Shown in pieces: positions 4,199 through 28,175 of a DNA stretch of 28,225 nt. Under the pieces are notes generated by a model. That model was not told where the DNA came from. It saw only the letters and a list, made by a program, of their open reading frames with translations, and did no database searches. The stretch lies in the NCBI GenBank assembly GCA_003971905.1, contig RSEE01000022.1:744001-772225 (forward strand), written 5' to 3'. A program made the translations under genes and the position numbers. Numbering within the stretch: position 1 is the stretch's first letter; every line of letters begins with the position of its first letter. The DNA comes from Moniliella sp. 'wahieum' (taxonomy: Eukaryota).

Positions 4199-7100
4199 CT
4201 ACCCGAGGCCGAGACCCACGAGGGAACTTGTGCTACCAGTGACGCTGGTGGTCGAACCGCTGCACCTGGGTCGCGGACCCGGGCGATCATCGAGCATGTC
4301 AACAAAGCTATGCGACAAGGACAAGGGTACATCCAACCGTCGCTGTCTTCCCCTCCACCTCCCCATCTCCGTTCCCATCTCCGTCACCGTCCTGGTCCCT
4401 TGGCCCTCAGCTTCTGCACCCACCATGGGAGCAGGCTGAGCGTGCGCTTCAGCTGCCCTCGGCTTCTGCACGTAACTCCATCCGCCTTGCAATCCGTTTG
4501 AGCCGCACGCCTTCGCTCGTGGGACTCGGCAAGGCATAGCCATAGCCATGGGGATGACCGTGCGTCAAGCGCGCCAAGCGTGGCGCAGAAGGGGGAGACG
4601 CCACCCCAGCGGGGCGGACCGCGGGGCGCGGTCCAGACTCTCCGGGGGGAAGGGCGATGCGGGCTGGGTCGTGGCCGTGGCCGTGGTGGCCGTGGTGGTG
4701 GATGGGGTGGTAGGTGTCGATGAGGAGGAAGTAGATTCGCGCTGGCTCGGGCTGGGCGGGACGTGGTGCCGAGGCGTACGAGGCAGGGCTAAGGGGGCGA
4801 ACGCGTGGCTGGAACCAAGCGGGTCGAGCGGGTCGAGCGGGTCCAGTGGGTCGAGTGGTCGAACGGGTCGGGGTGGGAGGTAGACGGGGGGGAAGTAAGT
4901 ACGCTCGTGGAACTGCGGGACAAGCGCAGTGGATGGTCAGACGCGGTGCGTGCGCCCAAGCCGGTCAAGCGCGTACTGGCACTAGTGCTAGCTGCTGCTG
5001 CTGGTGGAGCCAGTGGGAAGGGACGTATCAACCGCCGGAGGAGGGGACGGGGCGCGCGCGCCACCCGTCAGGCGGTACATCGCCAAGTCCTGTACCGATG
5101 AGCGGGGGGAAAGCCGTCCCATGAGCCCGGGCGCCAACCCCGACGCTGACGCTGACGCCGTGCCGGGACTGGTGCCCAAGATGGAGGGCGAGCCGAGCGG
5201 GTCGGAAGGCATCCTGCTCTTCACGGCTTGGGCGTACGAGCCACCCGGGCCCGGGAAGTCTGGGTCCCAACCGCGCTCGTGCTCGTCCACAGTCTGGGGC
5301 CGGGGTTCCGCACCTGGGCCGGGAGCTCGTCCACCCGCCGCTGACACACCCGACGGCGCGAGGGGGGGCACGGACTCGGCCACGGACGAGGACAAGGACT
5401 TGGACGCGCCTGCCCCCCCGCCCCACCGACCGGGGAGCAAGCTACTGCTCGCTGCGCAGCGGCCGTGCTGGGCGGTAAGAATCCGGTGCCGGTGCCGGTG
5501 CTGGTGCTGGCGCGTGAGCAAAGGCAAAAGGAAGCGAGCTGCGCACCGTTTGTGCGGCCCTTGAAGCGGGGTGGGGTAGTAGGCTGCTACTACTAGTTGG
5601 CAAGGTAACCTGTGATGCAGGTTGGCTAATGCGAGGACCTAAGCGGTCCAAGCCCAAACTTTTTTTCAATTGGATCACCGTCCGGAACGCATGGATCTGT
5701 ACCGCCCTGGCCTCGGCTAAGGCCGCAGCGTCAACGATGGCTTGGGCCAGCTGCAGGCGGGTTTGGTTGGGAAGCGCGAGGGTTAGGGATAAGGCGTGGG
5801 ACTGGGACGACTGGGGTAGAGTAGGGGCAGGGTCGCGGTCGAAGGAGAACGAGTGGGAGTGCGAGTGCGAGGGTGGGAGCGGGGCCAAGTCGTTGGTCAG
5901 TGCGTGGTGCAGAGCGTGGGCGCACCAGCGTGCCAAGTCGGGCAGGTGGTAGATGCGAGCCAAGAGGAGCAAAGCGGAGCTGATACGAGGGTGGCGCTGG
6001 AGGGGGGGGGTAGCGAGCGTCAAGGTATAAAAGTAGAGCAACAACGAACGCACTACATCAGGAGGTTCAGGCAAGATGAGTCTGCGCGGGGTGGTGAGAC
6101 GGACATCCGACTTGCCCAGTCGCAGTACCATCGCTTCTTCCTCTTGACCTTCCTCGGCGGAGGTACGAACGAGGTGAAGTGCTCGTCCGCGGTAGGTGCG
6201 CATCGCGTCCCGAAACCATGGCCAGCGACGTTCCAATAGCGCACGCCACGTGCCCACCCTCGTCCCGTCTTGGCAGATCACTTCAAAGTCGCCTTGTGCG
6301 CCTATACTGCTCGCCAAGCCAGACGACCTACCAGCCGACGTTTCCACCCGCCTGGACCGGCGCCTACGGCCGAGGAGGCGGGGAGAGAAGACCCAAATGG
6401 ACACACGGGCGGGCCTAACGATCCACCGCGCGTCGCGCCAGGCGTAGCAGCAGGGGTTGTACGAGTGTCAAAGCGGGTGTAGCGGTGTGTAGCGGGTAGC
6501 GGTAGCGGTAGTGCTGTCGGCTGCTGCTGTGCTACCATCTTGGGCGGTCGAAAGCATCATGTCAATGCCCAGCTCGATGGTCCAGGGTGCGACCTGCGCC
6601 AGAGGGGGCTGGTAGATCCCCATGCTTCCAAGTCCAACGCAGCTAGCTGGTGCATGTTGACCTGACGAGCTTGGTAGTCGGTGGCCAAGTCGCGCGAGCG
6701 CAAGCCAAGATCAACATACGATTCTCCTGACGGTTCAAGAGGGCTTTGTTCCACGATCCGGTACTGAGCAACGTGCCGCGTCCAAGCGGGTCCAGCGCAG
6801 CTGACTCAACTGCAGCGCCACAGCGCATGCGTTTGAGTCGTACTGCCCAAATGGGTGCCGGAAACAAGTAGTAGATGATCACCTACCACGTACCCGGTCG
6901 GAAACCGCAAGCCTGGAGGCACAGGTACCAAACTCTCCCTTTCTCTGTCCCTGTCTCTGCCCTTGTCCCTGTCACCACCTGGGAACGCTGGCTGGGATCC
7001 ACGACGACCCTGGACCATTCGCGCACCGAGGTCTTCAATGGTCAACTGACACAGGTGCCCGGTAGCATCCTGCTCGTATTGGAACAAGAGCAACTCGCGC

Positions 7101-8629
7101 TGCACGTTGGAGAAGCGCGAGTTGGAGTAGAGCAGTACGGGCGGCAACCGTTTTTTCGCAGGCGACGAGGTTGAGGTGAGGAGGTGGTGGAAGAGATGGA
7201 GGTGAACGAAGAAGAAGAGGAAGAGGAGGAGGAGGAGGATGAAAAAAGAAGAAGAAGAAGAGAAGGAAGGAGGGAAGGAGAGGAGGAAGGCGGTACGGAC
7301 GTGTGGGCAAATGGAACACTGAACGGTAACCGCCGTAGATCGGTCAGGCCCAGGTTCAAATCCTTCTCGCGCGTCACGGTGTCCAAGGTGGGAGTGGTAG
7401 ATTGAGACCGTTCCAAAGCTTCGAGCGATTTTTGCAAACCTCGTACCGGCCGAAGCAAAGGAGCTATCCGGGCGCAGCGGCAGGCCATGCGCGACCGAAG
7501 ACCGGCGTACGTCGGACGCCGCAGCGGAAGCGGAGGAAAGGGCAGAGGCAGGTAAAGTGGTAGAGCTCAAGGGGGAAAGCGCACCGCTAGCTGTCGAGGT
7601 CCGACGACTTGTTGAGGGCAGTGCCCCGCCCCGCCCCGCGATTGGAGCCAACAAGGCCATTGCGTTGATGAGGCAGGTCCGATCGCGTCGGCGGATTCGG
7701 ACGTTCGCCACCCACTACGATTTCGCGTCCTTGGCCATCGAATACGGCCCACGGTACAGGCGCCAACAAAGAGCGGTAGCATCCGAACTTACCCTTGAGT
7801 GGGTCGGTGCGCAGCCATCGCGACTGGCGCAAACTGAACAAGTTGGCTTGCATAATGTACTCGTTCTGTGCGTCTTGGCCGCCAACAACCAACAGGTAGT
7901 CGCCCACGACGGCGCTGAGGTGGGCGTAGCGCGCCGTAGGCCGCGGCGGGGGCACATCGCTATTGGGAGGGTGATCATAGCTCAAGTCCCACGTTTGGGT
8001 GGTCAAGTCGAACGCAATGATTTCAGACAAGGTTGCCAGTCCATCAGCCGCTGGGGCCGAGGTGCCGTGGGCCAAGGACGTGGCGTGCCCGATCGACCAG
8101 TATCGGTTTCACTGGCGCGTGGGGTGCGCAGCGTGATGTGATGGTCTCGGACGATTCGCGCTCACTTTGGGGCCGGGGACCGAGCGCCATGCCGCCCGAG
8201 ATGAGCAGACGACCGTCCCAGACGTTGGCGGCGTGAAAGTAGCGCGGCTGGGGCCAGGCACCAGAGGAAAGGAGAGGATCGTTGGCGATGGCCAACTCGC
8301 TGGGCTCGTCTGCCTCGTGGTTGGCAAGGACGATGGCTGCGTCGGGTCCGGGGCCGAGGAAGGACCAAATGCGAGTGGTGAGGTTGAGCACGTAGAGAGG
8401 GCATTGGTTAGTCTGCGGTCGCTGAGGCGGCCACCAAAGACGTAGAGGCACGCTTCCCCCTTGGAGGAGGTGCCTGGACCCGATTCGACGACAGTGGTGG
8501 ATGCGCCCTGGGGGGGGAGGGGCAGCAAATGGTTAGGAGGGCGAGGAAGAAAGACGGGGGAAGGAGGGCGTAAATCAGCGGAGGCGGGATGGTGCCGGTT
8601 GTGGTGAGCAGAAAGAAACGAGGAGGCAT
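4199..8629 (-). CDS. ral2: Kelch-repeat + BTB/POZ regulatory protein, Ral2/Mds3/Pmd1 family (several frameshifts; long low-complexity C-terminus, 3' end approximate)
   Basis: Family motifs occur in order across frames: TTGTIPPPLI|GASTTVV, LYVFGGRL, PQPRYFHAANVWDGRLLISGGM, PTARYAHLSAVVGDYLLVVGGQD, LLYSNSRFSNVQREL, PPGLRFPTG, GSWNKAL, DLATDYQARQVNM..LDLEAWG, then BTB (GDFEVICQDG..LLERRWPWF..LPEPPDVVRSLLLYFYT). First intron ~8508-8572 has a CTAAC branch at 8532-8536 and a CAG acceptor. Confidence 0.85.
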
Positions 8630-9115: not shown

Positions 9116-9544
9116 GTGCTGCCCATCCCACACACCTCACTCGTCACTCGTCACTCGCAGTGGTAGTAGCACTAGCACGGCCTAACCCCCCCCCACCCCC
9201 AAGTGTGATAGTGGATCTCAATCACCACCGCCTCCACGTGGCTGCCCGCACGCTGCCCCCCGCTGCCTGCCCCGACAGCCACGCCACATCCTCCGCCTAC
9301 GTACGCCTTTTCAGATCTGAATCTGCGATCTGGATCTGAGCCCAGCTGGCCTCCGCCATCCATTGCATCCATCATCCATCATCCATCATCCGCCCATCCG
9401 CCATTAGACATCCGCCCCCCTCCGCCTCCTCTGCTGCCTGGGTGCGCAGGCGGCGCAGACGCACACTTTGCACATCCGGATCCTGCGGCCCCGTCTTGTC
9501 TGCATCTGTCCACACCCGCACCCCTCGCTCGTCAGCACCAGCAC

Positions 9545-12500
9545 TCACTCCGCACTCCGCACTCCCCCGATCCAGCACGCACCAATGCCCAGGTAGACCG
9601 GGTGTCGTGGCTTGCCCTCCTTTTCCGTCAGGTCCCAGCAGCGGTACTTGACGATTGCGCCGATGGGAGGCCATTGACCGCGGGTGCGGGTTTGTGCGTC
9701 AAGACCCGATCCGACATTGAATTGTACGCCCGACGCCATACGGCAGGTAAGTGCGCCGATCTGGTTCGGGTCTTCATCTGGTCTTCCGTGTCGGAGCGGG
9801 GTGTAGCCAACGACAGTGGCTTCGCCATCGTATGCAGCTTTGACCTTGTACAGTACCCTGTTGGACCTTCCTGGGACGTAATCTGATCCTACTTTGCGCA
9901 GCATCGCGCCTTCCCCCCGCGCTTGAGTATGGCCGCGACGAACGAGGCGAGGTGGGCGGGGGATTGGCATCGGATCTGTTTCAGTGGCACCACCCTCCGT
10001 GCCTGGGGCGAGGTGAGCAGCGCAGTAGATTGCGATTGGGACGAAGTAGCTCGTGCTTCGGGATTCAATGCCCACACCACCTCGTCCGGCGTCAAGGCTG
10101 GGCCCAAGCGGTCCGTCATGAGCTCCCACCGTGCTTCCACCGAAAGCTTACCTGCCCCACTGGGCGAACGCGGGAAACAGTCAAATACCATGTACACACC
10201 CCGTCCCAGCGCGCGTGCGACGACCGGATCTTACCTGACGTCGCATTGAACGTATCCCTGCCACCCCACAGCTCCCCATCCAGCGCCAAGTCGGTCGGTA
10301 ACTCTGTGTGTGTTACGCAGCATGGGGGTCAGTACTCAGTCTCCGTGTCAATGCAAGTCAAATTCCAGGTTCCGTGCGACCTGTGAGTGTGTTGACCGTT
10401 GACATGTTGACAGATCTTCCTTTTTTTTCTTTCGATGGGTTGCCGGCGGCGGCAGGCACAGGTACGTACCTTTGGCAAACTCGGGCGGGGACGCTGGGCA
10501 TGACCTTGGCGGGAAATCAAATACTCGCCATCCCAATACGCTCGGAACCCATCCAACTGGTGCCACCATCCACAGTTTCATCGTCAGTTCGTCAGTTCGT
10601 CAGTTCGTATACTCCATTGATCGGTTTCTCGGTTTCTTGGTTCGTCCCGTGCCCCCTCTCTCCTCTCCTCTTGTTCTGAAAAGAAAGAAAGAGAGACGCG
10701 AAATGACGCGACACGACACGACACGACACGATACGAAACGAAACGAAACGAACGAAACCGAGACCGAGAAGGAGAAGGAGACCCAACCACGCAACCAGGG
10801 GGGGCGACAACGTACCTTTTCCGACATCCACCAATCTCCGGGACACATCTGCTCAGTCCAGCTAGCTGGTACCATCTTGGCTAACATGAGCGCGGGGGGA
10901 GCAAGCTTCCTCCGCTCTCTCGGCTGCGCCGTCCCTGACCCACCGGCGTCCCGCGCGTCCGAACCACCCCGGCAGACCAAAGTGGAAGTAGAGGTAGAGG
11001 TAGAGGTAGGGGTAGGGGTAGGGGTGGAAGAGGAGAGGGAGGACGAGCAGCGAGCGAGGAGGGCACGGGCACGGACACGTGCATCGGCTGGGACAAAGAG
11101 GGGGAAGCAACTGGTTGGCTACTACTAGGGTGGGGAGGGAAGCTAGGAGAAGAAGAGCCGGGGAAGGATGCCAACCGGGCTGAGAACCCTGCTGAGACCC
11201 CGGCTGAGAAGAAGGATGGTGCATCAAGATGCTCACATGACCCTTTTCCGAAGCGGGGGGAGGGGGGGCGAGTGTGGGAGGCGGACGAACGTGGCGGGCC
11301 GCATTGAGGCGGAACTTGTCGTACGCCGAACCGAGGAAATGAGTTAGGTGACGACAAGTTCGTTGCCACGTTGGCGTGGCGTGGTGCGCAAACTTGAATT
11401 CCGGACAGGTACAGAGCCAAGTCAGGGCCGTCTTGTGCGTAATGCGGTACGCGTGCGCACCAGGGAATAAAGAGACTGAGGTAGACGCTCCAATGGCCAG
11501 ATGGGTACGCGGACGCGGGGTCGAGTCCGTCTCGGAGTCCGCGTCGGCGTCCGCGTCCGCGTCGGTAGCTGACTGGGTCAGAGCGGGACCAGGGTCGGTG
11601 CTTTCTTCAGTAAAGGGAGGTACGTGGGGGACAAAGTGGTAGGAGGAGGGGGACGAAGCGAGTTGGGACCCCGATGGCTGGGACGGAGCCGGGGCAAATG
11701 CAGGCGCAGACGCAGACGCAGGCGCCGAGGAAGAGGGTGCAACTACGTTTCTTGGGTCTTTGGCGGTGGGGTTGGCTGTAAAGTTCGGCTGCGGGTTGGA
11801 TTGGGTTGTAGGCTGCCTGTTCCGGATGGGCGAGGCTGAGAAAGAGGACGAAAATGAGGACGAAGAAGAGGAAGAGGGAGAAGGAGAAGGAGGGGAATAA
11901 GGAGAAGGGAAAGGTGAGGAGGAGGAGCACGCCGCTGGCCCTAGCTCGGACGCACGCGCGCGACGCTCCTCTGTCCCGGATAGCTGGGTCGGGGAGGCGG
12001 AGAAAGGGATGGACAAGGGAGGAAGCACATTGGGTTTTCCCCTCGCAGCGGGGGGAAGAGCAAGCAACTTGGCTTTACCTCTCGCGGCACGGGAGGTGGG
12101 GGACGAGGACGAAGCAGAGATCGGTGCAGTAGCATGAGATAAACGGGACGACCAGGGCGCAGCCGGGTCCACCTTTTCTGCCTCCGCATTACCTGCCGCC
12201 CGAGCCGGCTCGCGATTCACGACTGGGGAATCCGAGGCAGCCGCATGACAGGTGGAGACGGTAGTCGGGGTGACACTCCTGGGCGGGTAAGCTGGGGGTT
12301 CCAAGCTGAGGCCGGGGCGCTGAGGCGATCTACGCGGCGACTCAGGTGACGATCGATGCGGCGGGACGGGAGATGCGGTAGGGGAGAGGGAAGACGGTGG
12401 TGGACCAGATAGGGGAGGCTGGTGGTGGTGATGATGAGGTCCTACTGACCGAATCTGGTTCCCCGTCGCCATACCCACCGCGGTGGCAGGCAACGCATGT

Positions 12501-12976
12501 GGCTTGTCCGAGCCTGGTACAGGCACGGGACAGGCACGGGGACAGGCACGAATACCGGCCTGGCCATCGGCGTAGCAGGTACAGCACCGGCATTGGCCAA
12601 GGGGGAAGGATGGGATCGGAGCCTTCATACTCTTGCGTTGCATCCGAGTCGGACCCCCTCGTCGGTCCGTCCGCGCTCGGGGACGAGACAGCGGACGAGA
12701 CAGCGGACGAGACGGGGAACGGGACGGGGAACGGGACGGGGGAGGAGACGGGGGACGAGACGGGGAACGCAGCAGCCCAGGGTGTGCGGCGCGGACCAAG
12801 CGGGTGGTCCGGGTCGGAAAACTCGGGGACGGTAGCGTCCGAGTCGGAAAGTTGGGCGGCAAGGTCCTCGGTCCGTAGATCGGGGGGTACAGTAGGGAGG
12901 GATGGAGTGAAAGCTGGGACGGGTGAGGGCGAGGGGACCGTTTACGCTTGCCCAGCGTCGTGGCTGGATCGTGCAT
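9545..12976 (-). CDS. ATP-dependent DNA ligase, minimal bacterial-like type (adenylation + OB domain), with SWIM-like Zn finger and long disordered N-terminus
   Basis: Spliced reconstruction gives LMLAK...GDWWMSEK|LDGFRAYWDG (motif I KxDGxR), LPTDLALDGELWGGR (III), YMVFD (IIIa), EGAMLR (IV), LYKVK (V), then OB fold (EATVVGY..GALTC..FNVGSG..PPIGAIVKYR..GKPRHPVYLG). Introns at 10557-10815 and 10304-10469 (GTACGT...CTGAC...CAG). CTCP-x15-CRH finger at ~11349-11412. Single-base frameshifts at ~10480, ~10195 and ~9915, plus a frame change near 11100. Confidence 0.9.
10705..10781. repeat. Compound microsatellite (ACACG)n-(AAACG)n-(GAGACC/GAGAAG)n inside a ligase intron
   Basis: Direct reading of 10705-10781, within intron 10557-10815. 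Confidence 0.85.
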
Positions 12977-13059
12977 TGCGCCCGGGCGGTGGGAGGCCAG
13001 AGGTGTGTCCGCCCAAGCGGCGGTTGATGGGTGGTGGTGGTTAAGTGGGTGGATGGGGG

Positions 13060-13106
13060 GGATGGATGGATGATGGAATGGATGGATGGATGGATGGATG
13101 GATGGA
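13060..13106. repeat. (GGAT)n tetranucleotide microsatellite upstream of the ligase ATG
   Basis: ggatggatgga tgatggaatggatggatggatggatggatggatgga. Confidence 0.85.
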
Positions 13107-14973
13107 GGAGGAGGCCGTGGATGAAGGAGGATGTGAGAGGGAGAAAAGATGAATGCATCAGCCTGCCTGCCTGTCTACTTGGCCAGTGGAGGATGATCGA
13201 TGAAATCACGTGTCGCATGGGCGAGGGGGATTCTACAAATTACGTCATCACGACCTACGCCACGGCGACGGCTGCCAAGACTCGGCATTACGCATTTGCC
13301 ACCCGTGTCACTATCACCCCGACAACGTCACCCATCGTAAACGAGGAAGTGCTATCGGATGATATTGTTTGTCCCTTCGCAGCCTCCGTTTGCATCTGTT
13401 GGGGTGGTAGTGTTAGGCCTCCCTGCACCCCTCAGTGAATCGGTGACGCTCTTGCTTAGCCGGTCGAAAGAGTTCCGAAAGAGTTCCGCTCGCAGGGCGC
13501 GCGCGCCCTGCTCGCTCCATCTCCCTTCTCTCTCTCCTGCCTTCTTTCCTTCAGATGCTTGTAGACTTGTGGTCACCCCTTTGCCTTCACTCCTGCAATG
13601 TCTGAAGGCTGCTTTGGCAGCTCATTCATAGGATCTTGAGTGCTCCCAAGTCGACTCTATAGCAGCTTTCGTCTGCTTCGCTCTGTCACATCTACGTATA
13701 CGCAGCCTTGCCACGCGTGCAGCCGCCTCGGCTTCACGCCCAAAGGCTTCTCCTCCTCGCTCGGATAGCCCAGGCTCGAAACTACCGTGAGCCGTCTTTC
13801 ACGTAAGGGACTGTACCCCACCAACCTGAGTGAGACCCTGGCAGGGCCCGCCTGCGACAGGGTCGTCGTAATTCACATGGATCGAGCCCGCCACCTCTGG
13901 ACCATCGATCATCCTTACTCCATCCTTCCCCAATCCACTTTGTCCTCCCCTCTCTTCTTGTCCTCCCCCCTCTTCTTGTCTTCCTTCCCCCCACCTTATT
14001 TTTGTCGCAAAGACCCCAATTGCTTTCCACATCTCCTCCTTGCTCCACCGCTCCGCGGCAGTCTTGTAGCCAGGTCGACGGCCGTGGGGGCACAAACGTG
14101 GGAGTGGATTGAAGGGGCACCGTGTGCCAGTGTGGTCGTTGGTGCCGCAATGGGGGCATTGGCGGTGAGTACGGGTAGCGGCATTTTAAGTGGGTGGAGG
14201 GACGCGTCGACGCGACTCTGCCATATGCCCGATAGTCGGCGCAGCCAGCCCCGTCACGTGCAGGTGGGGAGCAGTAGGGTTGCAACTTTTTGGTGGGTCC
14301 TGCCATATGGTAATAGAAGATTAGTCGCTCGTCGCTCGGCACGTGTTATCTAGGCCAGTGTCCCACAGGAGACATGCTCGAGACGCCACCTGTCGGTCGT
14401 GGACGCCAAAGTTGGCATGTAGACTCTGCGCAGATCCCACCCCGTCCCGACTTGGACTTGCGCGCGAGCGCCCTTACATGTTACACCGATGGCATGCGCA
14501 TAGTCCCTGCTCCCCTCGGCACGGATGTGGGCACGGACCATCACCCACCGTATTATACGTGGGACTTGACCTGCACTGCCCTTCAGATCCTTCAGACTGC
14601 CTATGTGGTGTCGCCCCATCTCCGCCAGACCGACTCGCCGCGGAGCGCACAGACAACAGCGCACGGAGCCCCGGAGCAAGTGGCGTTGGGAACCCCAGGC
14701 GCGTTTCGGCTGCGGCCCCCTCTCCCACGCGTCGTTCCTCTCCTCTGGCCCAGCTGGAATTACGCGTTACGCGTTACGTCAACGCAACCCTAGCCATCCT
14801 TGGCCTCTTCCCTCGGCAACTGAGCCTCCGCAGCCCTCGCAGGTAAAACCCGCACCCTGCGCCGCAGCCTTTCCGACCCCGCCCCCGCCCCCGCCCCCGC
14901 CCTCGCCAACCCCCTCGCCCCCCCTCGACGCCCACCGCTCTGCCCAGCCGGGCACGACAGGACCTTTTGTCCG

Positions 14974-26342: not shown

Positions 26343-28175
26343 CTACTGGTCAGGCGCAGGATGGGAGAGGGCACAGCCGAGGCAGGAGCCGGTGCCGAAG
26401 GCGCGCCCACGAAGGGCGTGGGTAATGTGGGTGGGGGCTGTGCAAGGGGTGCGGTGGACGGGGCGGGGGTTGGACGACCCGACTGTACTGGGTGGGTGGA
26501 TGACGACGGAAAGTGGGTTCTTGGAAAAAACTCAGACGAAGACCAGGAGTTTGACCCGTCCGTCGAGCATATGACCATTGAGCGTTTGTCGTGCGTTCGA
26601 AGCGGCTGAGACCGAGTCAAACTCAACGAAACATACGGGGCCTCCTCCACTCCCGCCTCCTGAACTGGCAGTAGGAGGCAGATTCGAAAAGAGTATCATC
26701 TCTTTCTCTCCTTCTCCCGACTTGGCCGAGGACATTACACGGAATGCCATCGCACGGTACCCAGGTTGCGAAGCAAATAGCGCCCGTGCGCCTCTTCCAA
26801 TTTCTTCCGCTTGGCTTCCCCGCCTGCCGCCGCGGAATTGGGCAAGTTGCCTACAAACAATGTTGTCCCAGGGGGATTATGGTCCCCAATCCCCACAGGG
26901 CCGGTGGAACGTGGACGAAGGGCGCTTGGGATTGGGAGACGGGAACTGGACCAGGACCGGTCAGGGGGACACTGGGGTTCACCCCCAGCCCTGCAAACCC
27001 GGAATGGGGCAGTGGCAGGCGGGATGAAGGGATCCGGACTGGAGGCACCGCGGTGACTGGGACCGGGGTTACGATGGGAGGAGAAAGCGCGTAACGTGCT
27101 TGGAGGGGGCAAGCGACCGCCTGATACGGACCATCGCCCCCCCGTCGATAAAGGACAGGGGGGCAGGGGGCCACCCAGCATAGGCCAATCAGGAAGAGGG
27201 GGAACATCCCGCATCCACTCTGGTCCATTCGGAGGCGCAGATGGTACCCATTCTCGCCCCATACTGGTGGTGGTGGTGGACCGCATCGTACGACGCCACC
27301 TACGCCTGGGTCAAAGGCCAATCTTCTTCTGTTTCGTCCCAGTCGGTCGACGAGCCTGGGGTGAAACGCGGTGCACTTTCCAGAGCCGCGCCGATTGACG
27401 GTGGCGCATCCGAGGGGAACGATGATAATCCCGGGGAGAGACCTGCGCACTGGAACCACCCAGGCCCATGCCAGGACTGAGAGGCAAAGGAGGGGGGGAC
27501 AGATACCGTTCCTCGTCTTCGTAGCGTGAAGCAGTGGGGAAAAGGCACGTAGGCCTCGAGGTGGCAAAAGGGTAGGAGGGGCGGAGATGGCGCCGCAGAG
27601 GGTGGGGGCCGAAGCGCTTGGTGTGCGGTTTTTCTTGGCCATCTCCGTCTTGAGCACTGCGCCGCGGTCGGGATCAACTTTGCGTCCATGCAGGCTGTCG
27701 CGCGCAGAAAGGGCGTCGGCGCGAGTGCGAAAGCGGGCAAATCCAATGTCTGCTTGAGCTTGGCTGGTGATTGGACACAGCAGCGTGGGAAGGCGGGGGT
27801 GGGGGCTTGAGGGTAGCCGCCTCAAACCAGGGGCAAAGAGGAAGAGGTTGTGGAACTCGCGATCGGTCATGTCATCGGGGAATCCAACGATGAAGACGGT
27901 GGTGATGTCTTCGGTGGGTAAGACGGGAGGAGGGAGGCGGCATGGCCTGTTCCGGCACGGCCACGTTCTGGGCTGGGCTCGGGAGGAGTGGGGAGGAGAG
28001 GAGGCTGTCGCGCCAGCCCAGCGCTCGGCGGTGGCGGGAGCGGGAGCGGGGGCGGGGCGGGAGCGGAGCCGGAGTGGGAGCCGCCGGAGCGGGAGCGGGA
28101 TCGGGAGCGGAAGCGGGTGGGCGGGAGAGCGGCCGAGATGCTGGCCGACGGAGCAGGACGCATCCTATCGGCCAT
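26343..28175 (-). CDS. scw1: Two-RRM RNA-binding protein, Scw1/Whi3-like (RBPMS/cpo-type first RRM); frameshifted, stop approximate
   Basis: ATG at 28175. RRM1: DITTVFIVGFPDDMTDREFHNLFLFAPG..IGFARFRTRADALSARDSLHGRKVDPDRGAVLKTEMAKKN. RRM2: DHNPPGTTLFVGNLP..PGYR..GPVCFVEFDSVSAASNARQTLNGHML..LRLSFSKNP (one extra T at ~26525). Confidence 0.85.

What the first reader, a model, noticed from the sequence alone, without database searches (positions are those of the whole stretch)
9545..12976. Bacterial-type minimal ATP-dependent DNA ligase, intron-containing, fused to a SWIM-like finger in a fungal genome
Seen in the sequence: all nucleotidyltransferase motifs (EKLDGFR, LDGELW, YMVFD, EGAMLR, YKVK) and a compact OB domain. 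There is no Lig1/Lig3/Lig4-type helical DNA-binding domain and no BRCT domain. Established knowledge: this compact core, with W-W-x-SEK-LDG-x-RAYWDG and F-x-VGSG..PPIG..GKPR-x-P, resembles bacterial minimal ATP-dependent ligases (LigE/PRK09125-like) more than the canonical eukaryotic ligases. From memory, SWIM-ligase fusions are patchily distributed in bacteria and some fungi (sometimes called LigK) and are poorly characterised. Inference: this is an anciently transferred and domesticated accessory repair ligase, since it carries canonical spliceosomal introns and sits among housekeeping genes.
Basis: partly seen in the sequence, partly recalled or inferred. Interest (0 to 1): 0.7.

Follow-up and report, generated by a model that had tools for sequence, protein, structure and literature searches.

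The report
Fungal SWIM-finger Ligase E gene
This is a real, intron-containing fungal gene for a small bacterial-type DNA-sealing enzyme with a zinc finger in front, one more member of an already described family, and its apparent breaks look like sequencing errors.

Summary
On the minus strand, about 9372-11530, lies a gene for an ATP-dependent DNA ligase of the Lig E / "LigK" type. It has a nucleotidyltransferase core with motifs I-V, a PF14743 OB domain, and a SWIM-like CxC...CxH module upstream. Three GT..AG introns (259, 166 and 77 nt) interrupt it. The coding end is at 9372, not 9545, because a last intron and a 44-residue tail were missed. The N-terminus and the SWIM-to-ligase linker are unresolved.

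The ligase core sits inside a Ustilaginomycotina clade, next to Tilletiaria anomala, within a eukaryotic clade separate from bacterial SWIM-ligase-WGR enzymes. Its history therefore looks old and vertical in fungi.

The three frame breaks each equal one missing base in a G or C run. One independent contig covers one site and carries the extra base. The neighbouring Kelch-BTB gene has four breaks of the same kind. The window keeps 57 of 66 near-invariant family columns. Assembly error is therefore much likelier than a pseudogene.

The family is published (Hecox-Lea 2018; Nicolas 2023), and relatives are named "SWIM-type domain-containing protein" in UniProt. Verdict: new member of a known kind, low to moderate interest.

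The parts
9372..9505 (-). Exon 4: C-terminal tail (DADKTGPQDPDVQSVRLRRLR...) and stop codon at 9372-9374
   Evidence: tblastn of P0001, P0002, P0143 and P0108 aligns their tails to 9506-9414. The frame is open to 9372 and the spliced translation runs through.
9506..9582 (-). Intron 3, 77 nt, GTGCGT...CTGAC...CAG, phase 1
   Evidence: Sequence reading. P0001 and P0002 run straight through this point without an intron. P0003 diverges after LGIG, as expected if it has an intron at the same place.
9583..10303 (-). Exon 3: motifs III (LDGELW), IIIa (YMVFD), IV (EGAMLRK), V (LYKVK), the OB domain and motif VI (KPRHP). It holds two one-base frame breaks, in the G runs at 10199-10202 and 9913-9918.
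   Evidence: tblastn shows frames -3, -2 and -1 in succession, while P0003 and P0002 are continuous across both sites. Pfam PF14743 hit.
10304..10469 (-). Intron 2, 166 nt, GTACGT...CTGAC...CAG, phase 1
   Evidence: P0003's open frame begins inside non-homologous sequence just before LP..LDGELW, the same position.
10470..10556 (-). Exon 2: LDGFRAYWDGEYLISRQG...PEFAK, with a one-base frame break in the C run at 10487-10490
   Evidence: The contig of run X1 has one extra base behind 10486, which closes the frame.
10557..10815 (-). Intron 1, 259 nt, GTACGT...CAG, phase 0. It splits motif I between K and L and contains short tandem repeats.
   Evidence: P0078 (Pseudozyma flocculosa) carries a 29-residue in-frame insertion, V...Q, at exactly this point, which reads as a retained intron.
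10816..10908 (-). 3' part of exon 1: ...KLAPPALMLAKMVPASWTEQMCPGDWWMSEK, with the catalytic lysine codon at 10818-10816
   Evidence: tblastn of P0055 (Tilletiaria) and P0039 aligns to 10908-10813 in frame -2.
10909..11272 (-). Pro/Ser-rich linker between the SWIM module (frame -1) and the ligase exon (frame -2). The reading path is unresolved: either two further one-base gaps or an intron.
   Evidence: Of 66 GT..AG removals that keep the frame open, none has a consensus donor, branch site and acceptor together, and the best one deletes residues that align to Tilletiaria.
11273..11530 (-). SWIM-like zinc-finger module (three strands followed by helices); ligands C40, C42, C59 and H61 of this 86-residue stretch
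   Evidence: tblastn to the SWIM modules of P0017, P0078, P0023, P0143, P0108 and P0052. The four ligands are invariant in 42 of 42 aligned sequences. The AlphaFold model has pLDDT 91.8.
11531..12976 (-). Possible N-terminal low-complexity extension or 5' region; not established as coding
   Evidence: All three minus frames are largely open here because of composition. No Pfam domain was found. Reading the sequence, I saw no ATG in any minus frame between about 12030 and 11480. Homologs place only about 40 residues before the module.

Best explanation
This is the gene for a fungal member of the eukaryotic 'Ligase E' (formerly LigK) family. The protein is intracellular. It has an N-terminal SWIM-type zinc module, a long Pro/Ser-rich disordered linker, and a two-domain ligase core (nucleotidyltransferase plus PF14743-type OB fold) with a short conserved tail.

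Inferred mechanism, from the intact motifs and the known chemistry of the superfamily: the lysine of SEK|LDG is adenylated by ATP, the AMP is passed to the 5' phosphate at a nick or break, and the 3' OH attacks to seal it. Motifs III-V hold the nucleotide, and the OB domain (motif VI) closes over it.

The core lacks the helical DNA-binding domain of Lig1/3/4. The SWIM module and linker most likely supply extra DNA or break recognition, or recruitment to damage. This step is inferred and not shown.

By analogy with the irradiation-induced Mortierella and rotifer enzymes, the gene is an accessory repair ligase rather than the replicative one.

The three frame breaks in the window are most likely single-base under-calls in G/C runs of the assembly, so the real gene is probably intact. 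It was inherited vertically within Basidiomycota (Ustilaginomycotina).
For: Identity:
- PF14743 hit at 53.4 bits.
- phmmer finds 1075 relatives at E <= 0.001.
- The best PDB matches are Lig E-type and Chlorella virus ligases only, 7 of 7 hits (6gdr is named as the Alteromonas Lig E in PMC7470946).
- The family HMM scores the spliced core at E 2e-85.
- Motif I K/D/G, LDGEL, FD, EG-M-R, K-x-K and PR-P are all present. The window agrees at 57 of 66 columns that are at least 85% conserved in 106 relatives; 2 more are the X placed at breaks, and 7 differ.

Architecture:
- The SWIM module aligns to those of named relatives, and all four ligands are invariant in 42 of 42 sequences.
- Relatives are called 'SWIM-type domain-containing protein' or 'DNA ligase' by their sources.

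Placement:
- window + P0003 has support 100/100. It is sister to Tilletiaria (87/90), inside a 9-row Ustilaginomycotina clade (100/99). Next come Pucciniomycotina (83/86) and a eukaryotic clade (90/91), separate from 11 bacterial SWIM forms (100/99).
- The neighbouring gene's best named relative is also Tilletiaria.

Intact gene rather than pseudogene:
- Each of the 3 breaks is closed by one extra base in a C4, G4 or G6 run.
- Run X1's contig covers 10359-10582 with 0 substitutions and has the extra base at the only break it covers.
- The Kelch-BTB neighbour shows 4 further breaks of the same direction at G runs within 420 nt of conserved coding sequence.
- Apart from the frame breaks, the exons contain no stop codons.

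Function by analogy: PMC10665377 (abstract and passages) reports irradiation induction in Mortierella verticillata and break-ligation activity for the rotifer enzyme.
Against: - Only 1 of the 3 frame breaks is covered by independent sequence. That evidence is a single 224-base contig at depth 2.2, possibly from the same sample as the window. The same contig also has one base fewer in an intron A run, so it is not error-proof.
- The reading path from the SWIM module to the ligase exon, and the start codon, could not be established. The claim that both lie in one polypeptide rests on homologs.
- Pfam's own SWIM model does not hit the window and is sub-threshold in relatives (11.8 and 12.9 bits against a cut-off of 19.6, in 2 of the 3 relatives tested).
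- PF01068 is below its cut-off on the fragmented window pieces (12.4 bits).
- The window differs from the family at 7 of 66 conserved columns, for example H for F in PRFP and W for P before PPIG.
- No activity, expression or localisation data exist for this gene.
Confidence: 0.8

Rival explanations
1. A decaying pseudogene: the three frameshifts are real mutations and the ligase is no longer made.
For: The assembly carries three frame breaks in about 800 coding bases. At least one more frame change separates SWIM from the ligase. Seven of 66 conserved columns differ.
Against: All breaks are one missing base in G/C runs and all shift in the same direction. The same holds for four breaks in the conserved neighbouring gene, which points to a systematic assembly error. 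The one site with independent cover is intact there. The exons contain no stop codons, and every catalytic motif is kept.
Confidence: 0.12
2. Bacterial contamination or a very recent horizontal transfer, rather than a resident fungal gene.
For: The catalytic core and the SWIM module have close bacterial counterparts in Myxococcota and Planctomycetota.
Against: The gene has three spliceosomal-type introns, two at positions shared with other basidiomycete genes. The core nests in a Ustilaginomycotina clade that mirrors fungal taxonomy, apart from the bacterial clade. It lacks the WGR domain found in 6 of 6 bacterial-type forms tested. The flanking Kelch-BTB gene is fungal, with the same closest named relative.
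Confidence: 0.02
3. A canonical eukaryotic ligase (Lig1/Lig3/Lig4) fragment or an mRNA capping enzyme misread as Lig E.
For: The KxDG nucleotidyltransferase motifs are shared by the whole superfamily. One relative is labelled 'DNA ligase/mRNA capping enzyme' by its source.
Against: The OB domain is PF14743. No PF04675, PF04679 or capping-enzyme family was hit in any piece. PDB relatives are only Lig E-type and Chlorella-virus-type ligases. All 14 longer homologs tested carry PF14743.
Confidence: 0.01

Closest known systems
Eukaryotic Ligase E / 'LigK' (Adineta vaga AvLigE, Mortierella verticillata MvLigE; PMC10665377, PMC6264785)
   Same: The core is the same PF01068 + PF14743 pair. The protein is intracellular and eukaryotic, carries extra damage-response-type modules around the core, occurs in many fungi, and forms a lineage distinct from Lig1 and Lig3/4.
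   Different: The rotifer and Mortierella enzymes carry PBZ fingers. This one carries an N-terminal SWIM-type module and no PBZ, BRCT or WGR domain. Neither paper mentions SWIM (0 occurrences in the main text of each; supplements not read).
SWIM-ligase proteins of Ustilaginomycotina (Tilletiaria anomala KDN42082.1, Tilletia horrida, Ceraceosorus bombacis CEH13077.1, Thecaphora frezii, Melanopsichium pennsylvanicum)
   Same: They fall in the same clade (100/99) and have the same order of SWIM, linker and ligase core. The intron position in motif I is shared with Pseudozyma flocculosa. None has WGR (0 of 4 tested).
   Different: Identity is only 41-46% over the C-terminal stretch from motif IV through the OB domain in tblastn. 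The window and its unnamed relatives P0001-P0003 share a roughly 30-residue insertion between motifs IIIa and IV.
Bacterial leaderless SWIM-NT-OB_2-WGR ligases (Myxococcota such as Chondromyces apiculatus, Planctomycetota such as Blastopirellula marina); the 'NT-OB_2-WGR cluster' of PMC7470946
   Same: The N-terminal CxCPAW...CxH module is homologous and the core is the same. Two papers already note that fungal sequences connect to this cluster.
   Different: The bacterial forms carry a WGR domain (6 of 6 tested) and have short linkers and no introns. They form a separate clade.
Canonical periplasmic bacterial Lig E (6gdr Alteromonas mediterranea; 4d05; 8u6x)
   Same: They have the minimal two-domain fold and are the closest solved structures by sequence (E 1.6e-8 to 2.3e-6).
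   Different: Canonical Lig E has a leader peptide and no appended domains (PMC8455567 and PMC7470946, passages). The window's core sits at least 195 residues behind a SWIM module.

Membership tests
Lig E / LigK-type ATP-dependent DNA ligase (NT + OB_2 core) | Motif I KxDG with the catalytic lysine | tested here: met
   SEK|LDG lies across intron 1. K, D and G are invariant in 106 of 106 relatives and present in the window.
Lig E / LigK-type ATP-dependent DNA ligase (NT + OB_2 core) | Motifs III, IIIa, IV, V and VI | tested here: met
   LDGELW, YMVFD, (E)GAMLRK, LYKVK and KPRHP are present. The E of motif IV lies at a frame break and is read as X.
Lig E / LigK-type ATP-dependent DNA ligase (NT + OB_2 core) | OB domain of the PF14743 type, not PF04679 | tested here: met
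   PF14743 scores 53.4 bits against a cut-off of 28, with no PF04679 hit.
Lig E / LigK-type ATP-dependent DNA ligase (NT + OB_2 core) | PF01068 adenylation domain above Pfam's gathering score | tested here: inconclusive
   The best window piece scores only 12.4 bits against a cut-off of 26.2, because introns and frame breaks cut the domain. The spliced core could not be given to the Pfam tool. A family HMM built here gives E 2e-85.
Lig E / LigK-type ATP-dependent DNA ligase (NT + OB_2 core) | Placement within the family tree | tested here: met
   The window lies inside a eukaryotic clade (90/91) and a Ustilaginomycotina clade (100/99). The tree has 52 rows and is rooted on 4 phage-like ligases.
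Lig E / LigK-type ATP-dependent DNA ligase (NT + OB_2 core) | Self-adenylation and nick sealing | not testable with these tools
   Needs biochemistry.
Canonical periplasmic Lig E (sensu Williamson) | N-terminal leader peptide directly before a bare core | tested here: not met
   The core is preceded by a linker and a SWIM module, not a leader. The definition is taken from PMC8455567 passages.
SWIM zinc finger | CxCxnCxH ligand signature | tested here: met
   C40, C42, C59 and H61 are invariant in 42 of 42 aligned modules, including the window. That CxCxnCxH defines SWIM is recalled from the 2002 description of the domain, which was not read here.
SWIM zinc finger | Match to Pfam PF04434 above its cut-off | tested here: not met
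   The window has no hit at E <= 10. Relatives reach 11.8 and 12.9 bits against a cut-off of 19.6. UniProt nevertheless labels relatives as SWIM-type.
SWIM zinc finger | Fold like a solved SWIM domain | tested here: inconclusive
   The model is confident (pLDDT 91.8). Foldseek finds 0 PDB matches at E <= 0.001, and the best VIA-align Z is 2.3.
Lig1 / Lig3 / Lig4 | N-terminal helical DNA-binding domain (PF04675), PF04679 OB domain, BRCT (Lig3/4) | tested here: not met
   None was found in any of the 20 ORF pieces covering both strands of 9212-13435.

The most novel reading that the evidence does not exclude
The SWIM-type module may be an ancestral, co-inherited part of the leaderless Lig E lineage rather than a late fungal add-on. 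The same CxCPAW...CxH module sits in front of the core in Myxococcota, Planctomycetota, oomycetes, chytrids and basidiomycetes. On this reading, eukaryotes and these bacteria exchanged an already fused 'sensor plus minimal ligase' unit. The module would be a break or nick sensor that stands in for the missing DNA-binding domain, much as the zinc finger does in Lig3. It has no solved structural relative, and none of the four ligase papers read here mentions it.
Probability: 0.35. Interest if true: 0.5.

Novelty: new member of a known kind. Interest (0 to 1): 0.25.

Why it matters
The gene adds one more basidiomycete to the eukaryotes known to keep a bacterial-type accessory DNA ligase, a family linked by experiment to radiation and desiccation tolerance. 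For this window the practical lesson is that the assembly carries frequent one-base gaps in G/C runs, so apparent pseudogenes in it should not be trusted. At the family level, the conserved SWIM module in front of the minimal core is annotated in databases. It is absent from the main text of the four ligase papers read here and has no solved structure. It is therefore a reasonable target for asking how a ligase without a DNA-binding domain finds breaks.

Tried and rejected
- Whole genome: none is held for this window, so the presence of Lig1 and Lig4 could not be checked.
- RNA evidence: no RNA holder is listed for the stretch, so splicing and expression are untested.
- Sequencing runs: only one DNA run held any of the stretch (share 0.05). 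Its single contig covers 10359-10582 only, so frame breaks b and c have no independent cover.
- An exact 30-base search of JGI metagenome contigs found 0 matches.
- A protein-guided scan of the same collection gave 4 loci, at most 43% identical, too distant to settle the gene model.
- A word-index search with the SWIM exon for longer proteins found none at E <= 0.01, so no close relative supplied the N-terminus or the linker.
- Intron search in the linker: 66 frame-preserving GT..AG removals, none with a full consensus. This was rejected as an explanation but is not excluded.
- Fold searches with the SWIM-module model: Foldseek against PDB gave 0 matches at E <= 0.001. VIA-align against 48,161 chains gave a best Z of 2.3. 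This is no evidence either way about the fold.
- Pfam on the other minus-strand and plus-strand ORFs of 9212-13435 showed nothing relevant. No rival gene was found on the plus strand.
- Literature searches: SWIM + 'ATP-dependent DNA ligase' + fungi, and SWIM + 'DNA ligase' + WGR, each returned one irrelevant paper. 'DNA_ligase_OB_2' returned none.
- Earlier scan notes: none for this genome or for this sequence.
- Programmed frameshifting was considered and dropped. The same breaks occur in an unrelated neighbouring gene.
Full report
**What is there.** The feature lies on the minus strand. Stop-to-stop frames and the raw sequence show ligase motifs spread over three reading frames. WWMSEK ends at 10816 and is followed by GTACGT. 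LDGFRAYWDG starts at 10556, after CAG. LDGELW, YMVFD, EGAMLRK, LYKVK and FNVGSG...PPIG...GKPRHP follow downstream. A CxC...CxH string (LCTCPEF...RTCRHL) lies upstream, near 11410-11345. Pfam on six ORF pieces hit only the last one: DNA_ligase_OB_2 at 53.4 bits (cut-off 28) and a sub-threshold DNA_ligase_A_M at 12.4 bits. The weak Pfam picture comes from introns and frame breaks cutting the domains.

**Gene model.** I used tblastn with 7 and then 8 homologs and checked the splice sites. This gives four exons:
- exon 1: ...10908-10816
- exon 2: 10556-10470
- exon 3: 10303-9583
- exon 4: 9505-9372

The three introns are 259, 166 and 77 nt long. All have GT(A/G)CGT donors, and the last two have CTGAC branch sites.

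The tail (DADKTGPQDPD...RLRRLR) aligns to the uninterrupted tails of P0001 and P0002. The coding end is therefore 9372, not 9545.

Two intron positions recur in relatives:
- Pseudozyma flocculosa P0078 has a 29-residue V...Q insertion exactly between K and L of motif I.
- P0003's frame opens just before LP..LDGELW and diverges after LGIG.

The spliced core, computed in a script with N at the breaks, is 344 residues with no internal stop.

**The frame breaks.** Three breaks remain inside exons. They lie in a C4 run (10487-10490), a G4 run (10199-10202) and a G6 run (9913-9918). Each is closed by adding one base, and each shifts the frame in the same direction. P0002 and P0003, from other assemblies, are continuous across the second and third sites.

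One public DNA run held part of the stretch. Its 224-base contig covers 10359-10582 with no substitutions and two length differences. One is a base fewer in an intron A run. The other is an extra base behind 10486, which restores the frame to ...SRQGHAQRPPPEFAK. This is thin evidence: the contig has depth 2.2 and may come from the same sample as the window.

The neighbouring Kelch-BTB gene gives separate support. Its conserved segment 6960-6540 changes frame four times against homologs P0163-P0165. Each change is again equal to one missing base in a G run, in the same direction. Seven of seven breaks examined in two unrelated adjacent genes therefore share one signature, which is that of a systematic assembly error.

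The window's core also keeps 57 of the 66 columns that are at least 85% conserved in 106 relatives. Two more are the X placed at the breaks and 7 differ. Every catalytic motif is kept. I put a true pseudogene at about 0.12.

**What could not be resolved.** The SWIM module is in frame -1 and the WWMSEK exon is in frame -2. Either two more one-base gaps or an intron must lie between 11272 and 10909. None of the 66 frame-preserving GT..AG removals has a full consensus. The best one deletes residues that align to Tilletiaria.

Homologs put only about 40 residues before the module. Reading the sequence, I saw no ATG in any minus frame from about 12030 to 11480. The long frame up to 13174 is open in all three minus frames because of composition. 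The start at 12976 is therefore unsupported. Searches for a close relative that would settle this failed.

**Family.** An exhaustive phmmer search with the C-terminal 122 residues found 1075 proteins at E <= 0.001.

Pfam on 14 of the longer ones gave:
- PF14743 in 14 of 14
- PF01068 in 14 of 14 at E <= 0.01
- BRCT in 9
- WGR in 2
- PBZ in 1

Source names show fungi of many phyla (Collybiopsis, Rhodosporidiobolus, Pseudozyma, Globomyces, Allomyces, Blastocladiella, Funneliformis), oomycetes and Thecamonas. Several are labelled 'SWIM-type domain-containing protein'.

Of the 101 stored relatives that contain motif I, 50 have a CxC...CxH string upstream.

The only solved relatives by sequence are Lig E-type entries (8u6x, 4d05, 6gdr, 7obn) and Chlorella virus ligase. 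No Lig1/3/4 chain appears.

No DBD, BRCT, WGR or PBZ was found in any frame of 9212-13435.

**Phylogeny.** A quick tree of 107 rows and a careful tree of 52 rows (LG+G4; the bootstrap had not fully settled) agree:
- The window pairs with unnamed P0003 (100/100).
- This pair is sister to Tilletiaria anomala (87/90).
- It lies within a nine-row Ustilaginomycotina clade (100/99).
- Pucciniomycotina are next (83/86).
- All of these sit in a eukaryotic clade (90/91), distinct from 11 bacterial SWIM-bearing ligases (100/99).

Rows were chosen by me from the 150 best hits plus 11 of the 35 bacterial loci. No Lig1/3/4 sequences were available to include.

The pattern fits long vertical descent in fungi. 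It says nothing about the direction of the older bacteria-eukaryote exchange.

**The SWIM module.** Bacterial genomes hold the same fusion. 35 loci were found with P0066, in Myxococcota, Planctomycetota and Obscuribacterales. 26 of them carry an N-terminal CxCP[AS][WF]...CxH module. WGR was present in 6 of 6 bacterial-type forms tested, and in 0 of 4 Ustilaginomycotina forms.

I aligned the window's 86-residue module with 20 bacterial modules and 21 eukaryotic proteins. C40, C42, C59, H61, G67 and R74 are invariant.

AlphaFold gives a confident model with three strands followed by helices (pLDDT 91.8, pTM 0.78). Neither Foldseek nor VIA-align finds a solved relative. Pfam's SWIM model misses the window and is sub-threshold in relatives. 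I therefore call it SWIM-like by signature and by database labelling of its homologs, not by profile or fold.

**Literature.** For each paper below I read passages found by term search, plus the abstract where shown. I read no supplements.
- Nicolas et al. 2023 (PMC10665377) rename it Ligase E. They show X-ray induction in rotifers and in Mortierella verticillata, and report break-ligation activity and improved radiotolerance of human cells expressing it.
- PMC7470946 and PMC8455567 note mostly fungal sequences joined to the bacterial NT-OB_2-WGR and leaderless Myxococcales clusters.
- 'SWIM' occurs 0 times in the main text of all four.
- Two library searches combining SWIM with ligase terms returned only irrelevant papers.
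My bacterial loci agree with that.

**Verdict.** The gene is a new member of a known, published family. Its 'damage' is most likely an artefact of the assembly. What remains mildly interesting is the unstudied, structurally unmatched SWIM module shared by the bacterial and eukaryotic leaderless Lig E enzymes.

Noticed in passing
window 5450-8600, minus strand: This is a Kelch-repeat plus BTB-like gene (Pfam Kelch and LZTR1-type propeller hits) whose best named relative is Tilletiaria anomala. Its conserved segment 6960-6540 changes frame four times, and each change equals one missing base in a G run. That is evidence that the assembly has frequent homopolymer gaps.
   Followed up: partly
window 26535-28164, minus strand: Pieces of an RRM-domain protein gene lie in at least two frames (RRM_1 hit on 26535-26876; a second RRM-like stretch, VFIVGFPDD...IGFARF, in 26854-28164). 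It is probably also affected by introns or frame breaks.
   Followed up: no
window 10557-10815 (intron 1 of the ligase): The intron holds short tandem repeats (TCGTT/TCGTG units, and ACGAACTG three times). Its last codons read GWWHQ just before LDG, mimicking the true exon-1 WWMSEK. tblastn therefore aligns homologs to the wrong copy, which lacks the catalytic lysine.
   Followed up: partly
L014 and L015 (Sandaracinus and a deltaproteobacterial MAG): In L015 (checked with Pfam) the WGR domain sits at the N-terminus, before the SWIM module, instead of after the OB domain as in L002, L022 and P0066. L014 has a near-identical N-terminal sequence and probably the same rearranged domain order, but I did not check it with Pfam.
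   Followed up: partly
P0158 (cluster of P0104): A protein filed under the fern Adiantum nelumboides belongs to a cluster that sits inside the Ustilaginomycotina ligase clade. This probably reflects fungal DNA in a plant assembly.
   Followed up: no
window 10976-11036 and 11840-11900, minus strand: These are low-complexity CT-rich repeats (CTACC/CCTCT units) within the linker and the upstream region. Read laying skipped 10976-11036 and 10698-10790 as repeats.
   Followed up: no
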